From the NCBI GenBank assembly GCA_018303855.1, contig JAGVXI010000007.1:12143-76142 (forward strand): DNA of 64,000 nt, given 5' to 3'. Below the pieces are notes generated by a model. It was given only the letters and a program-made list of their open reading frames with translations. It did not search any database and was not told the origin of the DNA. Positions 33,132 to 63,916 of this stretch are shown piece after piece. The translations under genes and the position numbers were made by a program. This stretch comes from Candidatus Pacearchaeota archaeon. GTDB lineage: Archaea; Nanobdellota; Nanobdellia; Pacearchaeales; GW2011-AR1. Position 1 is the stretch's first letter. Each line of letters starts with the position of its first letter.

Positions 33132-33852
33132 TTCCTTCTTTTTCTTTTAAAAATTGGCTTGAATGAAATAAGCTTTCAAATGTTCCTGCATCTGACCAAA
33201 AACCCTTGATAATACCATAAAAACATTTTCCTGATTTTACATAATAATCAATTGCATCTGTTATCTCTAATTCTCCTCGGGCAGAAGGTTTAAGCACATC
33301 TATGATGTTAAAGATATTATTATCAAACATATACAATCCTGTCATTGCAAGATTTGATTTTGGGTCACGTGGCTTTTCTTCAACATAAACAACTTTATCT
33401 CCTTCTGTTAATGCACAGCCAAATCTTCTAGCATCTTGCATTGAAACCTCTTTTAAAAAAATCTTAGCTCCCTCTTGCTGTTTTTCAAATTCTTCTACAA
33501 AAGGTTTTACATCATCTTCAAAGATATTATCCCCTAAAACAACAACTACTTTATCATCTCTAACAAAATTTCGCGCTAGTTTTAACGCATGTGCAATTCC
33601 ACCTGAACCTTCTTGCACATCATAAGCAAGATCTACTCCGAATTCTTTCCCACTTCCTAAAAGATTTAAAAAATCTCCTGCGTGCCCTTCCCCGGAAATA
33701 ATTAATATATCTTTAATGCCAGCTTTTGCTAAAAGTTGCAAGGGATAATAAATCATGGGTTTATTATAAACAGGAAGCAGGTGCTTATTAGTGACTTTTG
33801 TACAGGGGTATAGCCTTGAACCAGTGCCTCCTGCTAAAATTACTCCTTTCAT
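33106..33852 (-). CDS. rmlA: glucose-1-phosphate thymidylyltransferase-like sugar nucleotidyltransferase (short RmlA form)
   Basis: 'MKGVILAGGTGSRLYPCTKVTNKHLLPVYNKPMIYYPL'. Confidence 0.8.
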   Translation of the reverse strand: MKGVILAGGTGSRLYPCTKVTNKHLLPVYNKPMIYYPLQLLAKAGIKDILIISGEGHAGDFLNLLGSGKEFGVDLAYDVQEGSGGIAHALKLARNFVRDDKVVVVLGDNIFEDDVKPFVEEFEKQQEGAKIFLKEVSMQDARRFGCALTEGDKVVYVEEKPRDPKSNLAMTGLYMFDNNIFNIIDVLKPSARGELEITDAIDYYVKSGKCFYGIIKGFWSDAGTFESLFHSSQFLKEKEGIKDQPYFA

Positions 33853-34847
33853 GATGTCCTCCTACCAGGCATGTTTTTTAATGGCTGCCACCACCATTTA
33901 TTATTCTTATACCATTCTATTGTTAAGCTAAGTGCTTTATCAAAATTAAATCGCGGTTTCCAACCAAGCGCCTTTATTTTTTCACAATTTAAAGAATACC
34001 TTAAATCATGCCCCTTTCTATCTTCAACTAACTGAATAGATTCCTCTCCGGCCCCCATTTTTTCAAGTATTAATTTTGTTAAACCTATATTAGTAATTTC
34101 ATTTCCTCCCCCTATATTGTATACCCCATTAACCTGCCCATTATGAATAATAAAATCAATTGCTTCACAATTATCCTGAACAAAAATCCAATCTCTAACA
34201 TTCTTTCCTGTTCCATAAAGGGGGACTTTTTTTTGTTCGATTAAATTTGTAATAAACAAAGGAACTACTTTTTCTGGAAAGTGATAGGGCCCAAAATTAT
34301 TACTTGACCTTGTAATGATAATTGGCTGTTTAAATGTTTTAATATTGCCCAAACAAATCATTTCTGCAGCAGCTTTTGATGCACTATAAGGTGAAGAGGG
34401 ATTCAAAACATCTTGCTCTTTGCTCGAAGCATCGCCGAAATTAAGCGAACCATATACCTCATCTGTAGATATTTGCACAAATAAACCTGCTTTTTTTTGC
34501 CTGGCAGCTTCTAAAATTGAATGAGTCCCTAAAACATTTGTTTGAATAAAAATCTGCGGTTCTTTTATAGAATTATCAACATGTGATTCTGCAGCAAAAT
34601 TGACTATAACATCTCCTTCTTGGATTATGTTCCTCATAAAATCGTAATTTGCAATATCTGCTTGGATAAAAGCATAATTGCTTTGATTCTCAATTTGTTT
34701 TAAATTTTCCTGGTTTCCAGAATAAGTAAGCTTGTCTATGTTAATAAACTGATAATTAGGGTATTTATTAACCATTAGAATTAGAAAATTACTTCCTATG
34801 AACCCGCATCCCCCTGCAACTATAACTCTTTTTGCCTCTTTGCTCAT
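33849..34847 (-). CDS. rmlB: dTDP-glucose 4,6-dehydratase
   Basis: 'RVIVAGGCGFIGSNF' and 'YSASKAAAE'. It overlaps rmlA by 4 nt, as in an operon. Confidence 0.8.
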   Translation of the reverse strand: MSKEAKRVIVAGGCGFIGSNFLILMVNKYPNYQFINIDKLTYSGNQENLKQIENQSNYAFIQADIANYDFMRNIIQEGDVIVNFAAESHVDNSIKEPQIFIQTNVLGTHSILEAARQKKAGLFVQISTDEVYGSLNFGDASSKEQDVLNPSSPYSASKAAAEMICLGNIKTFKQPIIITRSSNNFGPYHFPEKVVPLFITNLIEQKKVPLYGTGKNVRDWIFVQDNCEAIDFIIHNGQVNGVYNIGGGNEITNIGLTKLILEKMGAGEESIQLVEDRKGHDLRYSLNCEKIKALGWKPRFNFDKALSLTIEWYKNNKWWWQPLKNMPGRRTS

Positions 34848-34909: not shown

Positions 34910-36418
34910 TTAAGCTGTTTCTTGCAGGTTATTATAACTAATTTTATAAATAACTAAAATAGGCTGATTATTGAGGGTATAAACCTGAACAGGAACAAAA
35001 ACTTCTGGATATTTTGCTGGAAATTCAAACATCCAAGGGGCATGATTTTCAAAGACATATAAAACAAAATATTTTGGCTTTTCTTCATTTAGCTGATTTA
35101 ATAACTCTTGTTCTGCAACGTCCAATACAGAAGAGTTTTCTCGAAAAACTCTTCTCTCAGAATAATACGCTAATTGAGGCAAACTTCTTGACCAAACACT
35201 ATCTTGAGGATTGGAATTATCTTTAATCCACAAACCAGCTGCCCTTATCTCTGCGTAGGTGTTGACTTTTAGTTTTATAATTTGATCAGCATGTTTTAGC
35301 TGAATATAAGCTCCTGAAAAAATAATTATGATTATAATAGTTATTGCTCCAAGTTCTTTAATATACTTTTTTATAAGCTGGAAAGTTAACATGATTCCTT
35401 TTGAGGTAATAATGAATATGGCAAAAGACATTGCCATAAACCACCTTTCTTCAAAACTCCTTAATACAAATATGTTGATGCCTAGAAGAAAAATCATAGA
35501 TATTGCTATAAACAAATCATTTTGATATTTTTTAGAGCCTTTTAAAATTTGATCGAAACCTAAAATAATAGTAATAAATGTTATTAAGCCCATAAAGAAG
35601 AATGCTAAAAAAACTTTTTCTGTATAAAGCGGAATAAATTTAAAGGCATCCCATCCAAAATTTTCTTCTCCTGGCCCGCCATAAGCACCTGTAAATGCAA
35701 GGGCATCTCCATGATGATAATATGACCAGATTAAGTGTGGCGAAAGTGTTAATAAAAAAACCAGTACCATCCCCCATAATGCTGGTTTTTTAAGAAATTT
35801 AAAATTTTCTGTAATTAAAACGAAAATTGCAATGATTACCCCGTAATAAATTCCTGCTGGACGTAATAGGAAACTAAGTGCAATAAAAAATCCAGAAATA
35901 TAGACAAACTTATTATTTTTACCAAAAGCATACCCTTTCCAAAAAAAGTAAAAAGCTAGCAACCCAAATAAAAAACTCATTTCATCATTCATAACCCTTG
36001 CAGAATAAAATAAATGAATCCAAAGCACAGCCGTAAGAAATGCAGTAAGGAGGGCAATTTTTTCAGAATACATTTCTTTTGCAAGAAGATATGTAAAAAA
36101 AACTACTAATACGGATGGGACTAAAACTAAAAAAAATCTTACTGACTGTTCAGATAATCCTACCCTAAAGATTAAAGATATTAAAAAAGGAAAAAGCACA
36201 ACTCTTTTTGGACTAATATCATAAGGAGTTCCAAAAACTATTTTTTTTGCATAAGCCATATATTCTGCTTCATCCCACCATAATGCTTGATCCTGAGTTA
36301 ATAAAAAATAATACAACCTAAGGATAAATGCAAAGATTAAGATTGCCAACAAATAAAAATTGGCGGGCTTTCTCAACCAAAGCCTTATTTTTTCAGTTAA
36401 AGCTTTATTGGCATCCAT
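34910..36418 (-). CDS. GT-C fold membrane glycosyltransferase (ArnT/PMT-like, GT39/GT83)
   Basis: 502 aa, polytopic. It has an N-terminal-loop 'WWDEAEY' acidic motif. Confidence 0.65.
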   Translation of the reverse strand: MDANKALTEKIRLWLRKPANFYLLAILIFAFILRLYYFLLTQDQALWWDEAEYMAYAKKIVFGTPYDISPKRVVLFPFLISLIFRVGLSEQSVRFFLVLVPSVLVVFFTYLLAKEMYSEKIALLTAFLTAVLWIHLFYSARVMNDEMSFLFGLLAFYFFWKGYAFGKNNKFVYISGFFIALSFLLRPAGIYYGVIIAIFVLITENFKFLKKPALWGMVLVFLLTLSPHLIWSYYHHGDALAFTGAYGGPGEENFGWDAFKFIPLYTEKVFLAFFFMGLITFITIILGFDQILKGSKKYQNDLFIAISMIFLLGINIFVLRSFEERWFMAMSFAIFIITSKGIMLTFQLIKKYIKELGAITIIIIIIFSGAYIQLKHADQIIKLKVNTYAEIRAAGLWIKDNSNPQDSVWSRSLPQLAYYSERRVFRENSSVLDVAEQELLNQLNEEKPKYFVLYVFENHAPWMFEFPAKYPEVFVPVQVYTLNNQPILVIYKISYNNLQETA

Positions 36419-36680: not shown

Positions 36681-38237
36681 ATGGTAAATATCTTATATGC
36701 GCATAAAGACCATCCTATAGAACCTTTAGGGCCTGCTTATTTAACCAGTTCTATAGCGAGACACGGGCACAAATCAAAACTACTTTTAACTTCAAGAAAT
36801 ATTGATAAGGCTGTTGAAGAAGTATCAGAAGAAATTAAAAAGGAAAGAGTAGACATTTTTGCCCAAAGCATCATATTTGGCAGCCACCATTATGCAATTG
36901 AATTAAATAAAAAAATAAAAGAAAGACATCCAAAAGTCATTGGATTTCTTGGCGGTCCTGCACCAACATTTACACCTGAGCTACTTGAAAGAGGTTTTGA
37001 TGTTATATGCAGGTATGAAGGAGAATATCCTTTTTTAGAATTCTGTGATGCAATTGAAAAAGGAGATGATGTTGGTAATATTGCAAATATATGGGTAAAA
37101 GAAAATCTTAACCTATATCACACAAAAGTAAGAAATACAAAAAATAATCTAGATATTGATACCCAGGGGTATAGAGATGAAAGCGGGTATGATCCTAAAA
37201 GAAAAAGATTTGTGAATGCCACAAGAAATCTTGTTGAAGATGAATCATTAGATGAACTTCCTTTTCCAGACAGGGAATTTCTTTATGCCAATCAAAAATA
37301 TAGAAACAGTCCTATAAAGCATTTTATGCATACAAGGGGGTGTGCATTTAGATGTTCTTATTGTTTTGTCCATGTAATGAATGCAGAAAACACACGAAAA
37401 GGAAAGTTTGTAAGAAGACGCAAAGATGAATCGGTAGCTGAAGAAGTAAAAAAAGTTGTAGATGAATATGGGGCAGGCAATATTTATTTTCAGGATGATA
37501 TTCTAGGCCCGGCTTATAAGGCTGAATATGCAAAAAGATTTTCGGAAGTTTTTTCTGAAATTGGAGTGCCAATGCATGGACATGTGAGATTTGATTTAAT
37601 TGCTGACAACCCTGATACTGCAAAATATCTTGCAAAAGCAGGGATTACAGGAGTCCATGTTGCCATTGAATCTGGGGATGATGAAATAAGGAATAAAATC
37701 CATAGAAGAGATATGTCCTTAGATGACATTCTTAAAGGAGCTAAATATCTAAGAGATAACGGAATTAAAATGATGACTCAAAATATTTTAGGAGCTCCTG
37801 GCGAAACAAAAGAGCAAATGTTAAAAACGCTTGAGTTGAATATTGCTGTCAAGCCGGCTTTTGCATCTGCTTCAATATTTCAACCATATCCAGGAACTAC
37901 TGCATTAGAAATAGCAGCAAATCAAGGCGTTCTTCCCACTAGAGATCAGGATGAATTAATAGATTTGTTTGGTTTGGAAACATTTTATAATAGATCAATA
38001 TTAGTTCAAGACCCTGAACACAAAAGATGGCTCGAGGGTTTTCAAAAGTGGTTTGCCCTTGCTGTTGCAAATCCTCAAATTTACAATTCAGGTGTTCTTG
38101 AAAGAGTTATTAATTCTTATCCTGAAGAAAAAGCAGCTGAAAAAGACTTAGAACATATGTATAGGGAACATAGAGCTAAAGCTGACGAGGAACTTTATGG
38201 AGTTAAGATTACAGATGTTGTTATGGAAGAGAATTGA
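36681..38237 (+). CDS. B12-binding-domain radical SAM enzyme (class B-like)
   Basis: N-terminal Rossmann-like B12-type domain. 'RGCAFRCSYC' supplies the CxxxCxxC radical SAM cluster motif. Confidence 0.75.
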   Translation: MVNILYAHKDHPIEPLGPAYLTSSIARHGHKSKLLLTSRNIDKAVEEVSEEIKKERVDIFAQSIIFGSHHYAIELNKKIKERHPKVIGFLGGPAPTFTPELLERGFDVICRYEGEYPFLEFCDAIEKGDDVGNIANIWVKENLNLYHTKVRNTKNNLDIDTQGYRDESGYDPKRKRFVNATRNLVEDESLDELPFPDREFLYANQKYRNSPIKHFMHTRGCAFRCSYCFVHVMNAENTRKGKFVRRRKDESVAEEVKKVVDEYGAGNIYFQDDILGPAYKAEYAKRFSEVFSEIGVPMHGHVRFDLIADNPDTAKYLAKAGITGVHVAIESGDDEIRNKIHRRDMSLDDILKGAKYLRDNGIKMMTQNILGAPGETKEQMLKTLELNIAVKPAFASASIFQPYPGTTALEIAANQGVLPTRDQDELIDLFGLETFYNRSILVQDPEHKRWLEGFQKWFALAVANPQIYNSGVLERVINSYPEEKAAEKDLEHMYREHRAKADEELYGVKITDVVMEEN

Positions 38238-38415: not shown

Positions 38416-38664
38416 ATGCCAAAAGATTATATTATGACAACAGAAGAAATGGAAGCATTTCTATTAAATAAATATGGCAAAATACCGAGAGGGAGCATAG
38501 AAGCTTACAATTTATTAAGAGAAAAAACAGGACTGGGTATTAACAATAAAAACAATGAAGAATTGCCGTATACTGAAAAAGTAAAACTCCACAAGGATAT
38601 TTGTAAACTGCTGGGATTTTCTCCTGAAGGTGGGCTTGCCGGAAGAAATATGGGTGAGTTTTAA
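38416..38664 (+). CDS. hypothetical small protein (82 aa)
   Basis: ORF only. Confidence 0.3.
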   Translation: MPKDYIMTTEEMEAFLLNKYGKIPRGSIEAYNLLREKTGLGINNKNNEELPYTEKVKLHKDICKLLGFSPEGGLAGRNMGEF

Positions 38665-38684: not shown

Positions 38685-39308
38685 TTACCTATTTAATAAA
38701 GTATCTAAATCTCTTTTCAGTTGCGTGGGATTTTTGTAAAGAATTGTGTCCATACCAAGTTGCTTTGCTGGTTTTAGATTTTCAATTTTATCATCAATAA
38801 AAATGACTTCTGAAGGTTGTGCATCCAAATCTCTTAAAACAAATTCATATGCTTTAATATCTGGTTTCATTAAACCAATTTCACACGAAATATAATTCTT
38901 GTCAAACAAATTAAAAACCCTATTTTTGGCTTTATTAAATTCAACTATTTCTTTTTCGGTATTAGTAAAAGAAACAACCTCGTATTTTTTTAAGTTCATT
39001 AAACCTCTTATAATCTCTAAAACCTCTTTAAATATCTTAAAATTTTTTTCATAAACGTCTATATGTTTAGAAAGGAGTTCTTGAGGAGAAGGTTTTTTCA
39101 AATTAAGTCTTTCTAGTGTTTTGGTATAAAATTCTAAAAGTGTCATTTTTCCAATAGGAACAAGGCTATAAATATCTAAATTAGCTTTTTTTAATTCCTC
39201 AAAATTTATTCCTAACAATTCAGAAATTTGTTTGTTAATAATTAACATTGTCTCTGGAACTAAAACACCCCCTAAATCTAATAAGATGTATTTTATCTTG
39301 CTATTCAT
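38685..39308 (-). CDS. HAD-superfamily hydrolase (subfamily IA-like)
   Basis: N-terminal 'ILLDLGGVLV' and C-terminal 'VIFIDDKIENL'. Confidence 0.6.
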   Translation of the reverse strand: MNSKIKYILLDLGGVLVPETMLIINKQISELLGINFEELKKANLDIYSLVPIGKMTLLEFYTKTLERLNLKKPSPQELLSKHIDVYEKNFKIFKEVLEIIRGLMNLKKYEVVSFTNTEKEIVEFNKAKNRVFNLFDKNYISCEIGLMKPDIKAYEFVLRDLDAQPSEVIFIDDKIENLKPAKQLGMDTILYKNPTQLKRDLDTLLNR

Positions 39309-39321
39309 TTTAATCTAAATT

Positions 39322-39786
39322 TTACTTACTTTCCTTTATTTCAATTGGCATTAATCCTGTTAAAGTAGATGATGACTGCAGTTTTTCTCCAAGACTATCA
39401 ACTATTTTTATATTAAATCTCTCGCACACTTCTTGTTCAGGAATCCTGTCATGTTTTCTAAAACTGCATGCAAATATATCTGGCTTAACCATCTCAAGGG
39501 TTTTAGAAACAGTCCTATCTTCATCTATAGAAAGAACAACTTCATCAACTAACTTTAAAGCTTTTATAATTTCTATTCTTTCATTTTGAGGCATAAAAGG
39601 TTTTCCTTTTTTTAATTTGGCTTGATTATCATTGTTTATAATAGCTATCAATCTACCATTTTCTCCAACCAGGTTTTTTGCTAATTTAAATAATTGCAAA
39701 TGGCCAATATGCAATGGGTCAAAATATCCAGAGACTGCAACTACAAGATCTTTTTTTGTTTTTTTATTTTCCATCTTATGGCACAC
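39322..39786 (-). CDS. cytidylyltransferase-fold nucleotidyltransferase resembling HldE domain II (heptose-1-phosphate adenylyltransferase)
   Basis: 'VAVSGYFDPLHIGHLQLF' carries the (H/T)xGH motif, and 'LIAIINNDNQ...KGKPFMPQNERIEIIKALKLVDEVV' follows. Confidence 0.55.
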   Translation of the reverse strand: MCHKMENKKTKKDLVVAVSGYFDPLHIGHLQLFKLAKNLVGENGRLIAIINNDNQAKLKKGKPFMPQNERIEIIKALKLVDEVVLSIDEDRTVSKTLEMVKPDIFACSFRKHDRIPEQEVCERFNIKIVDSLGEKLQSSSTLTGLMPIEIKESK

Positions 39787-39794
39787 AATTTTGA

Positions 39795-40718
39795 CTAAAT
39801 AAATTTTTCTAAATTTATTTCCTCTTTTCTAAAAAGTATTTTATCCATTTCTTTTATGCAGTCTTCATGAGTAATTTTGTCAAATTCTTCTTTGGATTTA
39901 ACAGGAATATGCCCTGCAACATCTCCGCTCCCTTTACATCTCTGCAGATATTCTTTTCCTATAGTAATCAAAATGCCATCATAACCCTGAGATATTGTAT
40001 GGGGTACTCCTCTGTTTTTATACTTATCTCCTAATTCCTTTTGGACATTTGATAAAAATGAAACAACTCCTTTAACATCTTCTTTATGAAAAACAAGATG
40101 AGAGAATGGAAAAGAAGGCATTACAGATATATCTTTTGTTTTTTTGCAGGAAATTTTCTCTGCAGCATCAAATCCATATGTTTTTCCTAGTATATCATAC
40201 CCATTTCTGAATGTTGTTAAATGCCAGTGTTCATGAGCTGGGATGGTTGCTCCAAAACCAGGGCTATTATGAAAAATTTCAAAACCTGTTTTATCTGAAA
40301 AATTTACAAAATAATTAAGTTCACTTTCAAGATTATCTATTTTCTGGGTTGTATACATTGGACGTTCTTTTTCAGTAATAGCCAAAGAAAAACCTTCTAT
40401 AATAGGGAATTTATTTATTGTGAATATATAATCTAAAACCTTTTCTTCAGTAATAAGGTTCATTAGTTGGTTATTTTTTGCTGATAAAGATGCATTGCAT
40501 AAACTGCAGTTTGAAGATTCTTTTATATTTTCCTGGCTGGTGGGTCTATTAAAACGATTTTCATTATGTATTATGCCAAAAACATATCCTGGGTTAGCAT
40601 TGCTTTCAACAATCCTAATATTTGGCTTGTAGGCATCTTTTGGGATGCCTTCTACTTCTGCAGCTTTGTGCCATCTTTCTAATACCTTTTGTCTAAGTGT
40701 TGAAAATTTTTCTGACAT
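39795..40718 (-). CDS. putative GalT-like HIT-superfamily nucleotidyltransferase/phosphorylase (tentative)
   Basis: 'CSLC' (CxxC) sits upstream of 'PAHEHWH' (HxHxH-like), as in the GalT/Ap4A-phosphorylase branch of HIT. There is no other support. Confidence 0.3.
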   Translation of the reverse strand: MSEKFSTLRQKVLERWHKAAEVEGIPKDAYKPNIRIVESNANPGYVFGIIHNENRFNRPTSQENIKESSNCSLCNASLSAKNNQLMNLITEEKVLDYIFTINKFPIIEGFSLAITEKERPMYTTQKIDNLESELNYFVNFSDKTGFEIFHNSPGFGATIPAHEHWHLTTFRNGYDILGKTYGFDAAEKISCKKTKDISVMPSFPFSHLVFHKEDVKGVVSFLSNVQKELGDKYKNRGVPHTISQGYDGILITIGKEYLQRCKGSGDVAGHIPVKSKEEFDKITHEDCIKEMDKILFRKEEINLEKFI

Positions 40719-40825
40719 GAATAAGCTTACTATAACGACTTTTTAAACATTTATCTATTCAAAGATAATTATTATAACAATTAAAGAACAATTAAATTTA
40801 TAAGGGGTTTAACAAAACTAATATC

Positions 40826-41296
40826 ATGCAAAACATTACAGAAATTTCAGGCATTGTAGACAGAGGTTTAAGGCATTCTTCTGGATATGATGAAAATGGA
40901 AAAGCATTCAGATTTTATGGGAGTAATGTTGGCTCAATCAAAAGCCAAAGATCTTTTTTTGAGAAGATCATACCTGAATTCTCAGAAATATATAACGGGA
41001 GTATTAATGTAAGCATTCATCCAAAAAGATTTGATATTGTTGAATTTGATTATGAAATAAATTGTAAATGGGATCCAAATCGTCGTGCAGAGAATTTTTG
41101 GTTTGTTAATACTGCCATAATTCATAAAAACAACAGCTATAAAGGATATGTGTATTACCCTTGTCCTTCAGAATGGAAAAAGCGGAAAGAAAATAATACA
41201 TTTGAGATTCTTGCTACTTTTATTTCCAATATAAAGTATGGAGACCACCTATCATTAATATTTAATTCTAGAAAGATTAAAATAAGCCAAATTTAA
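40826..41296 (+). CDS. hypothetical protein (156 aa)
   Basis: ORF only. Confidence 0.35.
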   Translation: MQNITEISGIVDRGLRHSSGYDENGKAFRFYGSNVGSIKSQRSFFEKIIPEFSEIYNGSINVSIHPKRFDIVEFDYEINCKWDPNRRAENFWFVNTAIIHKNNSYKGYVYYPCPSEWKKRKENNTFEILATFISNIKYGDHLSLIFNSRKIKISQI

Positions 41297-41880
41297 TTAG
41301 CATTTATAATCTCAGCTGCTTCAAAAAGATCTTTGGCATAAAAATCTGGTTTTGTATTTTCGTTAAGGTTTATATTTGAAATAATAATCTCTTTATTTTT
41401 GGGAGATTTTATCATTATTGTTTTACATCCTGCATTTTTTCCTGTTGCAATATCACTAATCACATCTCCAATCATCCAGCTTTCCCTGAGATTTATATTA
41501 AAATCTTTTGAAGCCTGTAGAAGCATGCCAGGAGCAGGTTTTCTGCAATTGCAAGATACTCTGTATTTTAGTGCATATTCTGGAACATCTGAATGCATTT
41601 CAGGATGATGAGGGCAAAAATAAAATTTATCTATTAGATTATTTAAGTTTTCATTCAAATACTCATGAAGTGATTCTAACTCAAGTTCAGAAATAAGCCC
41701 TCTAGCTATTGTTGGCTGGTTCGTCACAACAATTGAAAGATAACCCTTATCTTTTAATAATTTTAAAGCCTCAACCACTCCTGGAAGAATGGTAATATCT
41801 TCTTTTTTATAATTATACCCTCCGCCAACTTTTTCTTTATTTATTACTCCATCCCTATCTAAAAAAACAGCTTTGTTCAT
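41293..41880 (-). CDS. gmhB: D,D-heptose 1,7-bisphosphate phosphatase (HAD, GmhB/histidinol-phosphatase-like)
   Basis: 'AVFLDRDGVIN' (motif I), 'FCPHHPE' and 'CNCRKPAPGM' (the Zn-binding and RKP-PGM signature of GmhB), and 'MIGD'. Confidence 0.7.
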   Translation of the reverse strand: MNKAVFLDRDGVINKEKVGGGYNYKKEDITILPGVVEALKLLKDKGYLSIVVTNQPTIARGLISELELESLHEYLNENLNNLIDKFYFCPHHPEMHSDVPEYALKYRVSCNCRKPAPGMLLQASKDFNINLRESWMIGDVISDIATGKNAGCKTIMIKSPKNKEIIISNINLNENTKPDFYAKDLFEAAEIINAN

Positions 41881-41934: not shown

Positions 41935-42837
41935 TCATACAATCCCTTTCGTACTCTTCGTCGCATGCCAGGCATCTTTATGATACTTCTTTAATATTTT
42001 TAACTGATAATACACCAAAAGCCAGACATATAATTTAGCGGGAAAAAGCAAAAAAGTCCATATAATCTCTTTTATTGTTTTGGGATAAAAAAAAGCTCTG
42101 TAACTTTCAAAAAGTTCATTCTTAAAAGTTTTTGTTTTTGGGTATTTTCTTAAGTTGATGTATTTAGACAACTGAATATGGGCTTTTGTTGTTCTTTTTT
42201 TCTGGTCAACAAAATCTCTAAAGTTTTTTGGATAAGAAACATAAACTATTGCTTTTGGCACATAAGCCATTTTATATCCTTTTTTCATGAAATAATAAGG
42301 GATTATTGCATCTTCAGGTATATCTAATGGAAAATTCTTAACAATGTTATTTCTAAAAGCCCATAAATATCCAGAACATTCAAGAAATTGTCCTTTTTTA
42401 GCTCTTTTAAGCCTTGCTTGATGAGCACCCGCGTCACAAAGCAAATGGCTCCAATACCCAAGCATTTTATTTTTTGAATCTATGGAAACCGGCCTGCCTG
42501 TAACACATCCAACTTTTGGATTTTTGAAAGGCATTAAAATATATTTTAGTGCATTATCTCCAATATGAACATCCCCGTCAGATAAAACAAGGATCTCGCC
42601 TTTAACTTTTTTAAATAACAGGTTAAGTGCAAACATTTTTCCCTTGCCGGGATCTTTGAAAAGTTTAACATCCTTATTGTTTTTTTGATATTTTTTAACA
42701 ACTTCCTGAGTTTCTCTATCGGGAGAGGAAACTATTAGCTCAAATTTTTTTCTTTTTAGATCTTGCTGTAAAAAACCTTCAATAGCTCTGCCTATTGTTT
42801 TTGGCTCTTTAAAAGAAGTTATAATGACTGAAATCAT
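41935..42837 (-). CDS. GT2 glycosyltransferase
   Basis: 'ISVIITSFKEPKTI' and 'VLSDGD'. Confidence 0.65.
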   Translation of the reverse strand: MISVIITSFKEPKTIGRAIEGFLQQDLKRKKFELIVSSPDRETQEVVKKYQKNNKDVKLFKDPGKGKMFALNLLFKKVKGEILVLSDGDVHIGDNALKYILMPFKNPKVGCVTGRPVSIDSKNKMLGYWSHLLCDAGAHQARLKRAKKGQFLECSGYLWAFRNNIVKNFPLDIPEDAIIPYYFMKKGYKMAYVPKAIVYVSYPKNFRDFVDQKKRTTKAHIQLSKYINLRKYPKTKTFKNELFESYRAFFYPKTIKEIIWTFLLFPAKLYVWLLVYYQLKILKKYHKDAWHATKSTKGIV

Positions 42838-43131: not shown

Positions 43132-43575
43132 ATGAGGTATCCATTAGATGAACTTTTAGACAAGAGGTCAATTATTCTGCTAAAGATTGATAAAATTAAA
43201 GATGAGGAGCTTAAAGAAAGGTTATGGAAAGAGTTCAGTGATTATACTATTGCTATATGGGAATATATAAAAGAGGGATTTTGTAAAATCGAACAAATTG
43301 AGGAATGGCATAAAGAACTTTATGAAGCAAATGGAAAAATATGGGAGCTTGAAACTGATCTTAGAAAAGGAAAGGAAATGGAGCTTGGATTTGAAGAAAT
43401 TGGCAAAAGAGCAATACAGATAAGGAATTTTAATGGTATAAGAGTAGCTATAAAAAGCAAGGTTGCAGAAATAACAGGAGCTGGCTATAAAAACATAAAG
43501 GTGGACCATGTGTCAGCTGAATCCTATAAAGATTACGAGAAAAATGCTAAAGTTGGCCAGTCTTATAGGATATAA
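43132..43575 (+). CDS. hypothetical protein (147 aa)
   Basis: ORF only. Confidence 0.35.
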   Translation: MRYPLDELLDKRSIILLKIDKIKDEELKERLWKEFSDYTIAIWEYIKEGFCKIEQIEEWHKELYEANGKIWELETDLRKGKEMELGFEEIGKRAIQIRNFNGIRVAIKSKVAEITGAGYKNIKVDHVSAESYKDYEKNAKVGQSYRI

Positions 43576-44918: not shown

Positions 44919-47669
44919 ATGAAGGCAGTGATACTTGCTGGAGGAAGAGGTAAAAGAACAGGGCAATATGGAGAAGAAAAACCAAAATGTCTTTTTGAGT
45001 TTAATAGGAAAACGATTCTTGCACATCAGCTTGAAGCATTAATAGCAAATGGCATAAAGGATATTATTATTATTACAGGATATAAAGAATTTATGATTAA
45101 AGATTTTATAAAAAACAACCACCAATTCAGCAACTTGAATATTCAGTATATAAATAATCCATATTATGAGACAACAAATACCTCATATGGGTGGTGGCTT
45201 TGCAGAGAATATGTTAAAAATGAAGAAGCTATACTACATTTTAATTCTGATTTGATTTTTTTTCCAGAACTTATTAAAAGGGTTATTGAAGATGATCACA
45301 AGAACATTTTATGTATTGACAGAAAGGTAGAGTTCAACGATAGCATGGAACAGGTTATTTTAAATGAAAAAACAGGACAAATTCTTCATATGGATAAAGC
45401 AAATATTCCTGGAGCTCATGGCAAAGGAGTGGGAGTTGCAAAATTCTCAAATGAAACAATTAATTTTATACTAAACAAGCTTGATGAGTTTATTATTGGT
45501 AAAGGAGATAGAGGGCAGAATTTTTATAAAATGATTAGGATAGCTGTAAAATACCTTGACTTTTATGGTTTGGATATAGGTGAATCTTTTTTTAGAGAAG
45601 TTAACACAGTTGGAGACTATGATATTACCAAGAGAGAATATGCTAAGCTAATACTAAAAGAATTACCTAAAAAAAGTATAAAAACAATTATCTTGGCAGG
45701 TGGGAAAGGGGACAGGTTAAAGCATTTTGTTGAAAATGTGCCAACAGCGCTCTTAAGTGTCGAAAACAAACCATTGCTTGCTTATCAGCTTGAGGCATTA
45801 ATGGCAAATGGCATTAATGATATTATTGTAATTATTGGATATAAAGGATTTATGATTAAGGAGTTTATAAAAGAACATCCAAAATTTAAAAATTTAAATA
45901 TAACTTATGTTGAAAACGATGAGTACAATACCACTGGCACAGCTTATGGATGGTGGTTAGCCAAGAGCCATATGAAAAATGAGCAATCAGTTTTACACAT
46001 TCATTCAGACTTAATTTTCTCTGAAGATTTAATAAAAAATATTATTGAGGATAAGAGAAAAAATGTTATTTGCATTGATAAAAAAATAGGGCTGAATGAA
46101 AGCATGGAGCAGGTTATTTTGGATTTGAGAGATGACAAAATGCTGTATATGGATAAAAGAAATGTGCCTGGAGCACATGGCAAGGCTGTTGGAATTGCTA
46201 AGTTTTCAAATGAAGCTGTTGAATATATGTTAAATAGAATACAGGCATATGTTGATTTAGGAGACAAAAACCAGGCATTTTATGGCATAATAAGAAAAAC
46301 AATCCATGAACACGATTTTTATGGCTTGAATATAGAGAATTCTTTTTTTAGAGAGGTAAATACAGTAGAAGACTACCAAAAAACATTACAGCTGCAACAA
46401 GCACAGGAAAAACCCCCTGTGCCAGAGAAAACATCTGTTATAATGCTTTATGGATTGCCTGTAAGCGGTAAAACCACTGCCTCAAGAAAGATAAGAGATT
46501 ATTTTGAAAAAGACATTAATATAGAGGTTATATCAACTTTTAAAATCAGGGAAGAAAAAAACCTTATTAATCTTTATTCTGAAGAGCAAAGAGAAAGGGT
46601 TTATGATGAAATTTGCAAAGTCCTTGAGGAAAAACTGCAAAAGAATATCTATAAATGCATTATTCTTGACGGAAATTTCAATAAAAAGGAAAGAAGACAA
46701 AAAGTGTATAATGTTTTAAAAAGATATAATTGCGATTTTTACATTATTGAGTGCTTTATTGAAAACACAAATGAAATTAAAAAAAGGCTTTCAGAAAGAA
46801 AAGGAGATTTTGGGGTTGAAAATGCGGCAACAAGTTTTGAACTTTATAGTATGATTAAAAATGAGGGGCATCTGCTCTCTGAAGACGAGTTTATTAACCC
46901 TATTCCGATTATCATTTCTTTTAATACAGAAACCAACTCTGTTCAATTAAAACCGCAGCAGTATCTTGTAAGGGGGATAATTGAGGCTTTGAAAGAGCCA
47001 AAGCCTGTTTTAAGCAATATAACAGAGATTATTTTTGTGAGGCATGGGGAAACACAAAACAATAAGGAAGGAATTTTACAGGGACATTCAGATATTCCAT
47101 TAAATGAGCAGGGATTCAAAGAGGCAGAAGAACTGGCATTATTCTTAAAAGATATTAAAACAGATTTAATAATTTCAAGTGATCTACCAAGAGCAATGCA
47201 GTGTGCTAAAAGAATTGCTTGGGGGAACCCCCATTTAGCAATAATTGAGGAGCCATTGCTAAGAGAAAAATATTTTGGAAAACACCAAGGAGTTAGTGTT
47301 TTAGAATTAGGCTATCCAAGTATTGATTATTATAATTTAACAAAACATCTTTATGAATGCAATTGTCCTGACGGAGAGAGTAATGAGCAATTGTCAGAAA
47401 GAATAAAACAATTCCTTAAAAAATTAGTAAAAGAACATAGCGGCAAACGTATGCTGGTGATTACACACGGAGGGTTTATCATGCTAGCAATAAATCATCT
47501 TCTAAAAGAAGAAATTAAGCTTGAAAATGCAAGACAGCATAAAAACGGGTATGTTTCTTATTTTAAACTTGATAATAACTTAAATGTTATTGATTCACTA
47601 ATTGATGTTCATGCTTCTAAAGTTGCGGGATATTTGAAAATAAATAATAATGAAGATAGGATTAATTAG
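44919..47669 (+). CDS. four-domain fusion: tandem LicC/PntC-like sugar/alcohol-phosphate cytidylyltransferase domains (aa 1-245 and 250-495), a P-loop kinase (about aa 500-690) and a histidine phosphatase/PGM-family domain (about aa 700-916)
   Basis: 'MKAVILAGGRGKR' and 'IKTIILAGGKGDRL' each start a LicC-like domain ('IIITGYK', 'YGWWL', 'HFNSDLIF', 'REVNTVGDY'). 'LYGLPVSGKTT' is a Walker A motif. 'IIFVRHGETQNN...SSDLPRAMQ' is the RHG phosphatase signature. Confidence 0.6.
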   Translation: MKAVILAGGRGKRTGQYGEEKPKCLFEFNRKTILAHQLEALIANGIKDIIIITGYKEFMIKDFIKNNHQFSNLNIQYINNPYYETTNTSYGWWLCREYVKNEEAILHFNSDLIFFPELIKRVIEDDHKNILCIDRKVEFNDSMEQVILNEKTGQILHMDKANIPGAHGKGVGVAKFSNETINFILNKLDEFIIGKGDRGQNFYKMIRIAVKYLDFYGLDIGESFFREVNTVGDYDITKREYAKLILKELPKKSIKTIILAGGKGDRLKHFVENVPTALLSVENKPLLAYQLEALMANGINDIIVIIGYKGFMIKEFIKEHPKFKNLNITYVENDEYNTTGTAYGWWLAKSHMKNEQSVLHIHSDLIFSEDLIKNIIEDKRKNVICIDKKIGLNESMEQVILDLRDDKMLYMDKRNVPGAHGKAVGIAKFSNEAVEYMLNRIQAYVDLGDKNQAFYGIIRKTIHEHDFYGLNIENSFFREVNTVEDYQKTLQLQQAQEKPPVPEKTSVIMLYGLPVSGKTTASRKIRDYFEKDINIEVISTFKIREEKNLINLYSEEQRERVYDEICKVLEEKLQKNIYKCIILDGNFNKKERRQKVYNVLKRYNCDFYIIECFIENTNEIKKRLSERKGDFGVENAATSFELYSMIKNEGHLLSEDEFINPIPIIISFNTETNSVQLKPQQYLVRGIIEALKEPKPVLSNITEIIFVRHGETQNNKEGILQGHSDIPLNEQGFKEAEELALFLKDIKTDLIISSDLPRAMQCAKRIAWGNPHLAIIEEPLLREKYFGKHQGVSVLELGYPSIDYYNLTKHLYECNCPDGESNEQLSERIKQFLKKLVKEHSGKRMLVITHGGFIMLAINHLLKEEIKLENARQHKNGYVSYFKLDNNLNVIDSLIDVHASKVAGYLKINNNEDRIN

Positions 47670-51195: not shown

Positions 51196-51271
51196 TATGT
51201 ATAATTATATATAATTAAGGTATTTAAATATTTATATAATGGAGGACATAAAAATAGAAATGAATATACAA

Positions 51272-51523
51272 TTAATACCCTAAAATTCTTAACCTTTTAA
51301 TCAATTCTGATTCTTCTTCTTTTTCAAGAACTTTATTTTTATCGTCGGGTTCTGGAGAAGAAAGAATTTGCCTTAAAACAAATGAGACATAAGCTGAAAC
51401 AGAAGGCATGCCAGTTCCCTTTATTCTTTTTTGGATTTTTTCAATTAAAGGGATGGGCAAGGAAATTGTGCCATATTTAACCTTAATGTCATTTTTTTTA
51501 GGTTTTTTCATAATTATACACAA
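51272..51523 (-). CDS. small ribbon-helix-helix (CopG-like) DNA-binding protein, tentative
   Basis: 'ISLPIPLIEKIQKRI...SVSAYVSFVLRQIL' has a beta strand followed by two helices. Confidence 0.35.
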   Translation of the reverse strand: MCIIMKKPKKNDIKVKYGTISLPIPLIEKIQKRIKGTGMPSVSAYVSFVLRQILSSPEPDDKNKVLEKEEESELIKRLRILGY

Positions 51524-63903: not shown

Positions 63904-63916
63904 TTTGATTACACTT

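What the first reader, a model, noticed from the sequence alone, without database searches (positions are those of the whole stretch)
38685..41880. Partial nucleotide-heptose module without GmhA or a kinase
The segment contains a confidently recognisable GmhB (DRDGVIN, CNCRKPAPGM). It also has an HldE-domain-II-like adenylyl/cytidylyltransferase, a second HAD phosphatase, and a 307-aa protein with CxxC and HxHxH-like motifs reminiscent of GalT-type HIT nucleotidyltransferases. Two unknowns (156 aa, 82 aa) are present as well. The canonical sedoheptulose-7-P isomerase and the heptose kinase are not visible in this window. Either they are elsewhere, or the HIT-like and unknown proteins substitute for them in a non-canonical route to an NDP-heptose or another NDP-sugar.
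Basis: partly seen in the sequence, partly recalled or inferred. Interest (0 to 1): 0.55.

Follow-up and report, generated by a model that had tools for sequence, protein, structure and literature searches.

The report
Archaeal heptose-type sugar module with HIT enzyme
A tiny symbiotic archaeon carries a cell-surface sugar gene cluster that looks like a heptose pathway missing its first two enzymes; its unknown 307-aa protein is a GalT/Apa2-type nucleotide-sugar phosphorylase-like enzyme that accompanies such pathways in related archaea rather than replacing the missing steps.

Summary
All six ORFs and the quoted motifs are present in a Candidatus Pacearchaeota (DPANN archaeon) surface-glycan island. 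No SIS/GmhA, PfkB or GHMP kinase occurs in the window or in 20 kb of extra flank, about 84 kb in total.

The 195-aa protein is GmhB-like: its best solved relative is E. coli GmhB, though it falls just under NCBIfam's equivalog cutoffs. The 307-aa protein is a GalT-branch HIT enzyme (Pfam DUF4922; AF2 pLDDT 91; Foldseek top hit is the Ap4A phosphorylase Apa2, E 1e-11; invariant CxxC and HxH).

The 154-aa nucleotidyltransferase is not HldC-type. It lacks the (F/L)xxGxSTT motif and scores only 30 bits against solved HldC, versus 88 bits for the true HldC-like proteins of sister loci. The second HAD has a YihX-like D-x-G motif I, which suggests a sugar-1-phosphate phosphatase.

In 27 distinct related loci the HIT gene lies with a sugar-1-P nucleotidyltransferase (26/27), a B12-radical SAM (23/27), PMT_2 (18), GT9 (15) and a heptose kinase (13). 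In some loci it sits directly beside GmhA plus HldE. It therefore adds to heptose pathways rather than replacing GmhA or the kinase. Its likely role is NDP-sugar phosphorolysis or exchange, which is inferred and untested.

The parts
39795..40718 (-). 307-aa GalT-branch HIT nucleotidyltransferase/phosphorylase-like enzyme (DUF4922/GDPGP1-like; Apa2-like fold). Proposed Zn ligands are C71, C74, H150 and H162; the proposed nucleophile is H164.
   Evidence: Pfam DUF4922 25.4 bits; precomputed faint GDPGP1_C; family alignment invariants; the HxHxH stretch aligns to the HIT motif of 3r6f; AF2 pLDDT 91.4 and pTM 0.90; Foldseek top hit Apa2 at E 1e-11 with TM 0.61-0.66, then ADP-Glc phosphorylase and GalT.
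39322..39786 (-). 154-aa (150 aa from the ATG at 39774) class-B cytidylyltransferase-like nucleotidyltransferase, lying 8 bp downstream of the HIT gene in the same operon
   Evidence: PF01467 60.8 bits; TIGR02199 rfaE_dom_II 59 bits against a cutoff of 181; class A/B split and motif test; PDB hits ECT 53 bits, 3glv 47, CCT 45.5, HldC 30, versus 88.5 bits to HldC for class A.
38685..39308 (-). 207-aa HAD-IA hydrolase with non-canonical motif I DLGGV (Asp+2 replaced by Gly); candidate YihX-like sugar-1-phosphate phosphatase; last gene of the HIT operon
   Evidence: Pfam Hydrolase/HAD_2; NCBIfam glucose-1-phosphatase 48 bits, below cutoff; D-x-G-G-V conserved in 6/6 orthologs; YihX hit at E 6e-10; YihX motif I FDLGNV verified in 8pno.
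41293..41880 (-). 195-aa GmhB-like HAD-IIIA sugar-bisphosphate phosphatase (DRDGV; CPHH...CNCRKP Zn-loop)
   Evidence: NF006506 148.6 bits and TIGR00213 137.6 bits, both just below cutoff, and TIGR01656 126.6 bits, above cutoff; best PDB hits are GmhB 3l8e/2gmw at E 6e-29; 46% identical to the GmhB-like gene in the HddA/HddC-type cluster L008 and 69% to that of L006.
40826..41296 (+). 156-aa conserved unknown (U156), divergent from the HIT operon, with its 3' end overlapping the GmhB-like gene by 4 bp
   Evidence: No Pfam or NCBIfam hit. Homologs occur in L006 (65%) and in L039 and L043 (33-38%), always inside these clusters. The AF2 model failed at pLDDT 31.8. Similarity to the RibK MJ0056 is weak: hhalign E 0.0025 with probability 12%, and 3/300 shuffles reach the observed score.
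38416..38664 (+). 82-aa conserved unknown (U82), located between the B12-rSAM and the HAD-IA gene
   Evidence: No family hit. Orthologs at 44-61% identity occur next to the B12-rSAM in L020 and L021.
36681..38237 (+). 518-aa B12-binding-domain radical SAM enzyme, the most constant partner of the HIT gene after the nucleotidyltransferase
   Evidence: PF02310 and PF04055. All NCBIfam equivalogs are far below cutoff. The best solved relatives are the sugar-modifying AprD4 at 46.9 bits and TokK. Present in 23/27 distinct HIT loci.
41935..42837 (-). 300-aa membrane GT2, upstream of the GmhB-like gene in the same transcription direction; homologous to the GT2 half of the GT9-GT2 fusions in sister loci
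   Evidence: PF13641/PF00535; 48% identical to the GT2 half of the L006 631-aa GT9+GT2 fusion; GT2_300 present in 14/27 loci.
34910..36418 (-). 502-aa PMT_2 family GT-C glycosyltransferase, presumed to transfer from a polyprenyl-phosphate sugar
   Evidence: PF13231 in the precomputed annotation; present in 18/27 distinct HIT loci.
43132..43575 (+). 147-aa conserved unknown (U147), divergent from the GT2 gene
   Evidence: No family hit. Orthologs sit next to GT2_300 in L009, L013, L019 and L021.

Best explanation
The segment is the core of a DPANN-archaeal surface-glycan module for a nucleotide-activated higher-carbon (heptose-type) sugar. It contains a GmhB-type bisphosphate phosphatase and the operon HIT - class-B nucleotidyltransferase - YihX-like sugar-1-P phosphatase. 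Flanking genes encode a B12-radical SAM enzyme, a membrane GT2 and a PMT_2 GT-C, which would pass the sugar to a lipid carrier and then to the cell surface. The 307-aa protein is a GalT-branch HIT enzyme. By analogy with Apa2, GDPGP1/VTC2, ADP-glucose phosphorylase and GalT, it should attack the alpha-phosphate of an NDP-sugar with His164, form a His-NMP intermediate, and pass the NMP to phosphate (releasing sugar-1-P and NDP) or to another sugar-1-P. It acts on the pool made by the nucleotidyltransferase it is gene-paired with. My preferred reading is that it edits or recycles wrongly or excessively activated NDP-sugar, with the YihX-like HAD removing the anomeric phosphate, as in GDPGP1-type quality control. 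It does not replace GmhA or the heptose kinase. Those entry enzymes are either encoded elsewhere in this genome or have been lost from this lineage. Shown: the folds, motifs, gene order and co-occurrence. Inferred: the substrates, the direction of the reaction, the physiological role, and that the sugar is a heptose in this particular genome.
For: HIT identity: Pfam DUF4922; AF2 pLDDT 91.4; Foldseek hits to Apa2 at E 1e-11 and to GalT and ADP-Glc phosphorylase; invariant CxxC and HxH across the family. DUF4922 is the domain of GDPGP1/VTC2, which are NDP-hexose phosphorylases, and GDPGP1 acts in quality control of the NDP-sugar pool (PMC7041677, citing Adler 2011). Context in 27 dereplicated loci with at least 8 kb of flank: a nucleotidyltransferase in 26, a B12-rSAM in 23, PMT_2 in 18, GT9-type in 15, a heptose kinase in 13, and at least one heptose marker in 22. 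The HIT gene lies directly beside SIS+HldE+GT9 in L010, beside GHMP kinase+GmhB+NTP_transferase in L008, and near a SIS-transaldolase fusion in L018. HIT clades track the partner NTase type. The PfkB kinases of the closest relatives L019 and L021 belong to the family that database sources name heptose-7-P kinase. The GmhB-like protein is closest to solved GmhB. The HAD-IA shares the D-x-G motif I with the glucose-1-phosphatase YihX. A distant CPR relative sits in a kinase/NTase/HAD/isomerase operon.
Against: No biochemical data exist for any member of this family. Phosphorolysis of the partner NTase's own product would be a futile cycle unless the enzyme discriminates between substrates. The near-universal B12-rSAM is not explained by an editing role. 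The window itself has no GmhA, kinase or GT9, and its NTase is not HldC-type, so 'heptose' is inferred from relatives only. The DUF4922 score is only marginally above cutoff, and Apa2, the best structural match, acts on Ap4A rather than on sugars.
Confidence: 0.5

Rival explanations
1. Nucleotide-as-handle pathway. The nucleotidyltransferase attaches an NMP handle to the sugar phosphate, the B12-radical SAM enzyme modifies the NDP-sugar (C-methylation, deoxygenation or rearrangement), and the HIT enzyme then removes or exchanges the nucleotide by phosphorolysis. This gives a modified sugar-1-P that is re-activated or dephosphorylated. The logic copies fosfomycin Fom1(CyTase)/Fom3/FomD.
For: The NTase, B12-rSAM and HIT genes form the most constant trio (26, 23 and 27 of 27 loci), and the B12-rSAM is often directly adjacent to the HIT gene. 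The fosfomycin precedent is documented in PMC8158854. The class-A NTase is homologous to 5x3d, a 160-aa chain deposited as 'phosphoenolpyruvate phosphomutase' that I take from memory to be the Fom1 CyTase domain. The best solved relative of the B12-rSAM is the sugar-modifying AprD4. Several kinase-bearing loci have two NTases (L006, L008, L032, L035, L043), which would allow re-activation.
Against: Many loci show only one NTase (L018, L039, L044, L019/L021), leaving nothing to re-activate the product for the GT9, GT2 and PMT_2 enzymes. No homolog has been assayed. The B12-rSAM is far below every NCBIfam equivalog cutoff.
Confidence: 0.17
2. In the window lineage the module does not handle heptose. 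The class-B NTase activates a different phosphate ester, for example a phospho-alcohol as ECT, CCT and TagD do. The GmhB-like enzyme dephosphorylates another bisphosphate, and the HIT enzyme works on that NDP-X.
For: The class-B NTase scores higher against ECT, CCT and 3glv than against HldC and lacks the heptose-NTase motif in 0/11 members. The window has no GmhA, kinase or GT9 in about 84 kb. No close ortholog of the L019 kinase was found. Five of 27 loci show no heptose marker at all.
Against: Class-B loci L019 and L021 carry an HldA-type kinase, and L006 carries HldE, a GmhB-like gene and a GT9-GT2 fusion. The GmhB-like protein is much closer to GmhB than to any other solved HAD. The window's GT2 is the ortholog of the GT2 half of the GT9-GT2 fusions.
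Confidence: 0.13
3. Non-homologous proteins in the cluster supply the missing isomerase and kinase steps. Candidates are U156 acting as a small RibK-like kinase, the PFK-2/FBPase-2-like half of the neighbouring 916-aa fusion, or the HIT enzyme itself.
For: A GmhB-like enzyme needs a bisphosphate substrate, yet no canonical kinase lies within about 84 kb and no close kinase ortholog was found. U156 shows a weak collinear similarity to the CTP-dependent riboflavin kinase MJ0056 (hhalign E 0.0025; 3/300 shuffles reach the score). The C-terminal half of the 916-aa protein aligns with PFKFB3 across both the kinase and phosphatase domains (E 6e-6).
Against: The HIT gene co-occurs with SIS plus a kinase in L010, L018, L027 and L047 and with a kinase in 13/27 loci. 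U156 co-occurs with PfkB or HldE in 3 of 4 loci. HIT chemistry is nucleotidyl transfer, not isomerisation or phosphorylation. The RibK similarity has only 12% hhalign probability and the AF2 model failed. The 916-aa fusion does not recur with the module in full form (one 531-aa partial relative in L016). The source is a MAG contig, so the missing genes may simply lie on other contigs.
Confidence: 0.07
4. The module belongs to phosphonate tailoring, linked to the PepM/Ppd/Fe-ADH cluster about 20 kb away. In this reading the NTase, B12-rSAM and HIT enzymes act on a nucleotidyl-phosphonate, as in fosfomycin biosynthesis.
For: A phosphonate cluster with two further CTP_transf_like genes lies at and beyond the right end of the window. 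The Fom1/Fom3/FomD precedent applies.
Against: No PEP-mutase, Ppd or Fe-ADH homolog occurs in any of the other HIT loci. The phosphonate cluster has its own NTases. The conserved neighbours are heptose genes.
Confidence: 0.03

Closest known systems
GDP-D-glucose phosphorylase GDPGP1 / GDP-L-galactose phosphorylase VTC2 (Pfam DUF4922, GalT branch of the HIT superfamily)
   Same: Matches the same Pfam domain. It has an HxHxH/Q nucleophile motif and is expected to work through a His-NMP intermediate that converts NDP-sugar plus Pi to sugar-1-P plus NDP. In plants the next step is a sugar-1-P phosphatase (VTC4); here a YihX-like HAD sits in the same operon.
   Different: The Pfam match is marginal (25.4 bits). 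This is a small, separate family: 53 representatives at E<1e-30 among 1.84 billion proteins, all identified genomes being DPANN. It carries a GalT-like CxxC Zn motif, sits in heptose-type clusters with a B12-rSAM, and its substrate is unknown.
Yeast Ap4A phosphorylase Apa2 (PDB 4i5t/4i5v/4i5w)
   Same: Best structural match (Foldseek E 1e-11, TM 0.61-0.66) with the same two-lobed GalT-branch architecture. Apa2 is a phosphorolytic nucleotidyl transferase.
   Different: Only 13-16% identity. Apa2 acts on dinucleoside polyphosphates and has no link to glycan genes.
Canonical NDP-heptose pathways: GmhA-HldE(HldA/HldC)-GmhB (ADP-beta-heptose) and GmhA-HddA-GmhB-HddC (GDP-alpha-heptose), including the archaeal 'HBEs' of Tang et al. 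2024 (via PMC11461863)
   Same: A GmhB-like phosphatase is present. Sister loci contain SIS, PfkB or GHMP kinases, HldC-like or HddC-like NTases and GT9.
   Different: The window lacks GmhA, the kinase and GT9. Its NTase is a different subclass without the (F/L)xxGxSTT motif. The module carries extra conserved genes (HIT, B12-rSAM, YihX-like HAD, U156, U147, U82) that are not part of any described heptose pathway.
Fosfomycin Fom1(CyTase)/Fom3/FomD
   Same: Combines a CTP_transf_like nucleotidyltransferase, a B12-radical SAM enzyme and an enzyme that removes the nucleotide.
   Different: The resemblance is by analogy only. The fosfomycin substrate is a phosphonate, FomD is a hydrolase of another fold, and no phosphonate genes are conserved with the HIT family.
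E. coli YihX (alpha-D-glucose-1-phosphate phosphatase, HAD-IA)
   Same: The 207-aa HAD is a detectable homolog (E 6e-10) and shares the unusual motif I with Gly at Asp+2.
   Different: It scores far below the NCBIfam equivalog cutoff (48 vs 295 bits). The sEH N-terminal phosphatase domain scores slightly higher. Its substrate is untested.

Membership tests
GmhB (D-glycero-D-manno-heptose 1,7-bisphosphate 7-phosphatase, HAD-IIIA) | HAD motif I DxDG(T/V), plus the Zn-binding CxH...CxC insertion followed by RKP | tested here: met
   FLDRDGVIN and FCPHHP...SCNCRKPAPGM are read directly from the translation. The residues align with E. coli GmhB 3l8e.
GmhB (D-glycero-D-manno-heptose 1,7-bisphosphate 7-phosphatase, HAD-IIIA) | Score at or above the curated equivalog/subfamily cutoffs (NF006506, TIGR00213) | tested here: not met
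   148.6 vs 178 bits and 137.6 vs 149.6 bits. Only the broader TIGR01656 histidinol-phosphatase-like domain passes, at 126.6 vs 84.15 bits.
GmhB (D-glycero-D-manno-heptose 1,7-bisphosphate 7-phosphatase, HAD-IIIA) | Closest characterised relatives are GmhB rather than HisB-N or other HAD-IIIA enzymes | tested here: met
   3l8e/2gmw at E 6e-29 (104 bits), against HisB 2fpr at 1e-7 (34.6 bits).
GmhB (D-glycero-D-manno-heptose 1,7-bisphosphate 7-phosphatase, HAD-IIIA) | Hydrolyses heptose 1,7-bisphosphate at C7 | not testable with these tools
   Requires an enzyme assay.
HldC / HldE domain II (heptose-1-P nucleotidyltransferase, 'HENase') | Cytidylyltransferase-fold HxGH motif | tested here: met
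   SGYFDPLHIGH; PF01467 at 60.8 bits.
HldC / HldE domain II (heptose-1-P nucleotidyltransferase, 'HENase') | C-terminal (F/L)xxGxSTT motif (Tang et al. 2024, via PMC11461863) | tested here: not met
   The window has NSLGEKLQSSSTLTGL. None of 11 class-B sequences has the motif, whereas 13 of 14 class-A sequences have it in strict or relaxed form.
HldC / HldE domain II (heptose-1-P nucleotidyltransferase, 'HENase') | Equivalog-level similarity to rfaE domain II / solved HldC | tested here: not met
   TIGR02199 at 59 bits against a cutoff of 181. HldC 5x9q scores 30 bits, below ECT, CCT and 3glv. The class-A control scores 88.5 bits with 5x9q as its top hit.
GalT branch (branch III) of the HIT superfamily | HxHxH/Q nucleophile motif | tested here: met
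   H162-E-H164-W-H/Q166; H162 and H164 are invariant in 24 sequences. The stretch aligns to the HVHFH motif of the HIT protein 3r6f.
GalT branch (branch III) of the HIT superfamily | Two-lobed GalT/Apa2-type fold | tested here: met
   AF2 pLDDT 91.4. Foldseek hits: Apa2 at E 1e-11 with TM 0.61-0.66; ADP-Glc phosphorylase and GalT at E about 1e-3.
GalT branch (branch III) of the HIT superfamily | CxxC plus two His Zn site, as in E. coli GalT (C52, C55, H115, H164; from memory) | tested here: inconclusive
   C71, C74 and H162 are invariant and H150 is at least 90% conserved. The 3D clustering of these residues was not measured.
GalT branch (branch III) of the HIT superfamily | Nucleotidyl transfer via a covalent His-NMP intermediate | not testable with these tools
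   Requires biochemistry.
GDPGP1/VTC2 (DUF4922 + GDPGP1_C) | Passes the Pfam DUF4922 gathering score and has the C-terminal GDPGP1_C domain | tested here: inconclusive
   DUF4922 scores 25.4 vs 23.6 bits. GDPGP1_C appears only as a 'faint' precomputed hit. Most family members have no precomputed Pfam hit at all.
Complete NDP-heptose biosynthesis locus | SIS-domain GmhA and an anomeric heptose-7-P kinase (PfkB HldA/HldE-I or GHMP HddA) present | tested here: not met
   None was found in the window or in 20 kb of extra flank. They are present in sister loci. The rest of the genome was not searchable.
YihX-type sugar-1-phosphate phosphatase (HAD-IA) | Motif I with Gly at Asp+2, and homology to YihX | tested here: met
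   DLGGV is conserved in 6/6 orthologs. YihX is hit at E 6e-10, and YihX reads FDLGNV. The protein is below the NCBIfam equivalog cutoff (48 vs 295 bits), so this is a resemblance and not established membership.
CTP-dependent riboflavin kinase fold (DUF120/RibK), considered for U156 | Significant profile or structural similarity to MJ0056 | tested here: inconclusive
   No Pfam hit and no hit with a PDB sequence profile. hhalign gives E 0.0025 at 12% probability. The shuffle control gives z about 3.7, with 3/300 shuffles reaching the score. The AF2 model is unusable.

The most novel reading that the evidence does not exclude
DPANN archaea (and perhaps CPR bacteria) possess an undescribed step in higher-sugar nucleotide metabolism. 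A dedicated NDP-heptose (or NDP-octose) phosphorylase/exchange enzyme of the GalT-HIT type works with a B12-radical SAM enzyme that remodels the nucleotide-bound sugar, so the nucleotide serves as a transient handle, as in fosfomycin biosynthesis. In the window's lineage the canonical GmhA/HldA entry would have been replaced by non-homologous enzymes: the RibK-like U156, or the PFK-2/FBPase-2-like kinase-phosphatase fused to two nucleotidyltransferase domains.
Probability: 0.12. Interest if true: 0.8.

Novelty: new variant of a known kind. Interest (0 to 1): 0.5.

Why it matters
NDP-heptoses have recently been recognised as cross-kingdom immune agonists whose biosynthetic enzymes occur in archaea (Tang et al. 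2024, via PMC11461863). The surface glycans of DPANN episymbionts are unknown but probably mediate attachment to their hosts. This analysis defines a small, uncharacterised HIT enzyme family that is gene-paired with the nucleotide-activating enzyme of those clusters. It also defines a second, non-HldC nucleotidyltransferase class and a constant B12-radical SAM partner. If the HIT enzyme is an NDP-heptose phosphorylase or exchanger, it would add a new reaction to heptose metabolism, either as a control point or as a remodelling step. It would also be a useful biocatalyst for making or interconverting NDP-heptoses. The practical lesson is that 'pathway holes' in MAG windows need comparative context before non-canonical routes are proposed.

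Tried and rejected
1. The structure prediction of U156 from a 3-sequence alignment failed (pLDDT 31.8), so no fold search was run on it.
2. The U156 = RibK-like kinase lead, which began from memory, was tested four ways. Pfam at E<=10 and a PDB sequence profile both gave nothing. hhalign and the shuffle control were weak. The lead is kept only as a hint.
3. The phosphonate/fosfomycin-type reading was rejected, because no PepM, Ppd or Fe-ADH homolog occurs in any other HIT locus.
4. I looked for informative domain fusions among longer, distant HIT relatives. Only plain HIT or CwfJ-like domains appeared, or nothing at all.
5. I searched for the window organism's own heptose kinase using the kinase of its closest relative, L019. 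Among 5541 hits, none of the top 120 bore the organism's signature. This is negative but not conclusive.
6. The contig look-up with the TTG-start ORF at 62773-63957 failed because the gene call differs. It was repeated with the neighbouring gene.
7. The profile of the HIT family against PDB sequences gave only a marginal hit to a HIT protein (E 0.46). Structural comparison was needed to place it.
8. The literature searches for DUF4922, for heptose plus histidine triad, and for DPANN plus heptose found no prior description.
9. tRNA and Rfam scans of the window found nothing.

Full report
**Where the window comes from.** The 307-aa protein is identical to 'hypothetical protein J4225_02320 [Candidatus Pacearchaeota archaeon]'. 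The window is the reverse complement of part of a 146-kb metagenome contig. GC content is about 31%. No tRNA or Rfam family was found. The left 16 kb holds the archaeal ribosomal-protein operon, SecY, and an STT3/AglB homolog at 10365-13358. From about 16 kb to the right end, the window is one long surface-glycan island. It contains GT2 and GT4 transferases, flippases, sugar epimerases/dehydratases, aminotransferases, methyltransferases, RmlA and an RmlB-like dehydratase (the 332-aa epimerase/dehydratase-family ORF at 33849-34847).

**Observation check.** The genes at 38685-40718 (HAD, nucleotidyltransferase, HIT) form a tight minus-strand operon with 13-bp and 8-bp gaps. The 156-aa gene is divergent from that operon, and its 3' end overlaps the GmhB-like gene by 4 bp. 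The GT2 and GmhB-like genes are co-directional. No SIS, PfkB or GHMP domain was found by Pfam across 16-60 kb. None was found by BLASTP with DPANN reference proteins across the whole window. None appears in the annotated genes of the next 10 kb on the left or about 9 kb on the right. GT9 is also absent from the window.

**The 195-aa protein.** It carries the HAD-IIIA motif I (DRDGV) and the CPHH...CNCRKP zinc loop. It scores 148.6 and 137.6 bits on the two GmhB models, just below their curated cutoffs of 178 and 149.6. Its best solved relatives are genuine GmhB enzymes (E. coli 3l8e/2gmw, E 6e-29), far ahead of HisB-N at 1e-7. It is 46% identical to the GmhB-like gene in a DPANN cluster that also has a GHMP kinase and an NTP_transferase (L008), and 69% identical to that of L006. 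'GmhB-like' is well supported. Strict equivalog membership is not shown.

**The 307-aa protein.**
- Pfam places it marginally in DUF4922 (25.4 bits against a 23.6 cutoff). DUF4922 is the domain of GDPGP1/VTC2, which convert GDP-hexose plus phosphate to hexose-1-P plus GDP (PMC7041677).
- An alignment of 24 homologs shows invariant C71, C74, H162 and H164, a near-invariant H150, and H or Q at position 166.
- The AF2 model is confident (pLDDT 91.4, pTM 0.90).
- Foldseek against the PDB returns yeast Ap4A phosphorylase Apa2 first (E 1e-11, TM 0.61-0.66). DUF4931, ADP-glucose phosphorylase and GalT follow at E about 1e-3.

The family is small. An exhaustive profile search of 1.84 billion representative proteins found 166 hits at E<1e-3 and 53 at E<1e-30. 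All eight genome hits are DPANN MAGs. The only named distant relative is from a CPR bacterium.

**The 154-aa nucleotidyltransferase.** It has the HxGH motif of the cytidylyltransferase fold, but it scores only 59 bits on rfaE_dom_II against a cutoff of 181. Comparing all such proteins next to HIT genes revealed two classes.
- Class A is 160-177 aa with TNGSFD(I/L)LH. It carries the heptose-nucleotidyltransferase motif (F/L)xxGxSTT described for HENases (PMC11461863) in 13 of 14 sequences. A class-A example hits the solved HldC 5x9q at 88.5 bits as its top match.
- Class B is the window's type, with SGYFDPLHIGHL ... NNLGEKLQSSSxLTGL. It never has the motif (0/11). It scores 30 bits on HldC, below ethanolamine- and choline-phosphate cytidylyltransferases and 3glv at 45-53 bits.

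'HldE-domain-II-like' is thus true only at superfamily level.

**The 207-aa HAD.** Its motif I is DLGGV. The Asp+2 general acid/base of HAD phosphatases is replaced by Gly, and this is conserved in all six distinct orthologs. The E. coli alpha-D-glucose-1-phosphate phosphatase YihX has the same peculiarity (FDLGNV, verified against PDB 8pno) and is a detectable homolog (E 6e-10). A role as a phosphatase for the anomeric phosphate of a sugar-1-phosphate is plausible but untested.

**The two unknowns.** U156 has no family match. It recurs inside these clusters in L006, L039 and L043. I suspected a resemblance to the small CTP-dependent riboflavin kinase MJ0056. The tests gave only a weak signal: hhalign E 0.0025 at 12% probability, shuffle z of about 3.7, and 3/300 shuffles reaching the observed score. 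The sequence-profile searches were negative and the AF2 model failed. U82 recurs next to the B12-rSAM in L020 and L021. Both are real genes of unknown function.

**Comparative context.** I collected 58 loci that encode relatives of the HIT protein, called and labelled their ORFs, and dereplicated them at 90% HIT identity. Among the 27 distinct loci with at least 8 kb of flank:

| Neighbour | Loci (of 27) |
|---|---|
| Sugar-1-P nucleotidyltransferase (any of three types) | 26 |
| B12-binding radical SAM | 23 |
| PMT_2 GT-C | 18 |
| GT9-type (heptosyltransferase family) | 15 |
| Orthologous ~300-aa GT2 | 14 |
| Heptose-type kinase (PfkB, fused HldE or GHMP) | 13 |
| GmhB-like | 7 |
| SIS | 3 (a fourth, L027, lies on a short contig) |
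| At least one heptose marker | 22 |

Four loci are especially informative:
- L010 reads GT2 | B12-rSAM | SIS | HldE-like | 112 aa | HIT | NDT-like | GT9.
- L008 reads B12-rSAM | GmhB-like | NTP_transferase | GHMP kinase | HIT | NTP_transferase, which is the HddA/GmhB/HddC layout.
- L018 encodes a SIS-transaldolase fusion next to a GHMP kinase, a GmhB-like gene and the HIT gene.
- L044 fuses the NTP_transferase to a 4,6-dehydratase.

The PfkB proteins of the window's closest relatives, L019 (70% HIT identity) and L021 (52%), belong to the family that database sources name D-glycero-beta-D-manno-heptose-7-phosphate kinase in DPANN genomes. HIT clades follow the type of partner NTase. Even a distant CPR relative lies in an operon of Cof-type HAD, NTP_transferase, GHMP kinase, epimerase, sugar isomerase and HIT.

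The heptose theme is supported by association. The suggestion that the HIT-like and unknown proteins replace GmhA and the kinase is not supported. The HIT gene sits beside canonical SIS and kinase genes in several loci, and U156 co-occurs with PfkB or HldE in three of its four loci. HIT chemistry (nucleotidyl transfer through a histidine adduct) does not fit isomerisation or phosphorylation. About half of the loci, including the window, have no kinase within 10 kb. In the window's nearest relatives the kinase lies just beyond the B12-rSAM, where the window has PMT_2 instead. A search with the L019 kinase returned no hit with the window organism's signature, and identity falls from 100% (the query's own protein) straight to 50%. 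So the kinase may be lost or very divergent in this lineage. The rest of the genome could not be searched.

**Most likely mechanism (inferred).**
1. The GmhB-like enzyme yields a sugar-1-phosphate.
2. The adjacent NTase makes the NDP-sugar.
3. The B12-rSAM and other tailoring enzymes modify it.
4. GT2 loads it onto a polyprenyl phosphate, and PMT_2 (with GT9 in other genomes) transfers it outward.
5. The HIT enzyme acts on the NDP-sugar pool by phosphorolysis or NMP exchange.
6. In the window clade, the co-operonic YihX-like HAD can then remove the anomeric phosphate.

I favour an editing or recycling role modelled on GDPGP1, because it explains why the HIT gene is paired with whichever NTase a cluster uses. 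The main rival is a fosfomycin-like 'nucleotide handle' scheme (PMC8158854), which better explains the constant B12-rSAM. A phosphonate connection to the neighbouring PepM cluster is not conserved.

**Novelty and score.** No paper in the searchable library links HIT-family enzymes or DUF4922 to heptose pathways or to DPANN glycan clusters. Taken singly, the genes are new members of known superfamilies. The conserved combination of HIT, NTase and B12-rSAM inside archaeal heptose-type clusters, together with the non-HldC class-B NTase, amounts to a new variant of a known kind of system. Interest is moderate at 0.5. The family is well defined and directly testable, but its function rests on inference, and the headline 'missing GmhA/kinase' may be no more than genome context.

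Noticed in passing
window 44919-47669 (+): A 916-aa four-part fusion: two NTP_transferase domains, a P-loop kinase (AAA_33/KTI12-like) and a His_Phos_1 phosphatase. Its C-terminal 422 residues align collinearly with human PFKFB3 across both the kinase and phosphatase domains (E 6e-6). It therefore has a PFK-2/FBPase-2-like architecture fused to sugar-1-P nucleotidyltransferases. This could be a self-contained kinase-phosphatase-NTase route to an NDP-sugar.
   Followed up: partly
window 61647-63957 and L060 1-10008 (contig beyond the right end): A phosphonate cluster. Fe-ADH (61647-62780) and a TPP enzyme, probably phosphonopyruvate decarboxylase (62773-63957), lie in the window. Beyond it come PEP mutase, a radical SAM-SPASM protein, a 454-aa unknown, two CTP_transf_like genes, CDP-OH_P_transf, GT2 and a second PMT_2. 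This suggests a CMP-activated 2-hydroxyethylphosphonate-type head group on lipid or glycan in a DPANN archaeon.
   Followed up: partly
L018 6429-7910 (-): A 493-aa fusion of a SIS (GmhA-like) domain with a transaldolase, next to a GHMP kinase, a GmhB-like gene and an NTP_transferase. It is a Rosetta-stone link between sedoheptulose-7-P (or octulose-P) formation and isomerisation. From memory, this resembles the LmbR/LmbN logic of GDP-octose synthesis in lincomycin biosynthesis.
   Followed up: no
L044 7908-9653 (+); L005 6040-7422 (+); L006 10605-12500 (+): Further unusual fusions in sister loci: NTP_transferase with a GDP-mannose-4,6-dehydratase-like domain, GT9 with NUDIX, and GT9 with GT2 (also in L014 and L028).
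   Followed up: no
L005, L010, L031, L039-L043, L057 (adjacent to the HIT gene): A 134-147-aa nucleoside 2-deoxyribosyltransferase-like protein (PF05014) is conserved immediately downstream of, and convergent with, the HIT gene in the class-A loci, at 65-78% identity between loci. Its role in a sugar-nucleotide cluster is unexplained.
   Followed up: no
window 43132-43575 (+) and 38416-38664 (+): Two small conserved unknowns. U147 always lies divergent from the ~300-aa GT2 (L009, L013, L019, L021). U82 always lies next to the B12-rSAM (L020, L021). Neither matches any family.
   Followed up: partly
window 23332-25170 (-): A 612-aa protein that combines a sugar C-methyltransferase (Methyltransf_13/23/14) with a C-terminal dTDP-4-dehydrorhamnose 3,5-epimerase-like domain.
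   Followed up: no
window 50437-52889: A PAPS-reductase-domain protein and a sulfatase/phosphodiesterase-family protein lie side by side in the glycan island. L006 has ATP-sulfurylase and APS-kinase genes upstream of its HIT cluster. These may point to sulfated glycans.
   Followed up: no
window 25218-26189 (-), 27757-28743 (+), 28750-29658 (+): Three ORFs of 302-328 aa inside the sugar island have no Pfam match, or only a weak FBPase N-terminal hit (25.8 bits, below cutoff).
   Followed up: no
L061 (Candidatus Andersenbacteria contig): A distant CPR-bacterial relative of the HIT family (E 1.7e-18 to the profile) ends an operon of GT4 | Cof-type HAD | NTP_transferase | GHMP kinase | epimerase | Fucose_iso_C isomerase | 149 aa | HIT. 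The logic is the same, with a different isomerase.
   Followed up: partly
L003 9627-10826 (+), L016 5748-6944 (+), L036 5450-6931 (+): A ~400-aa unknown (U399) recurs only in kinase-less HIT loci, between HAD and NTase genes. It has no Pfam match.
   Followed up: no
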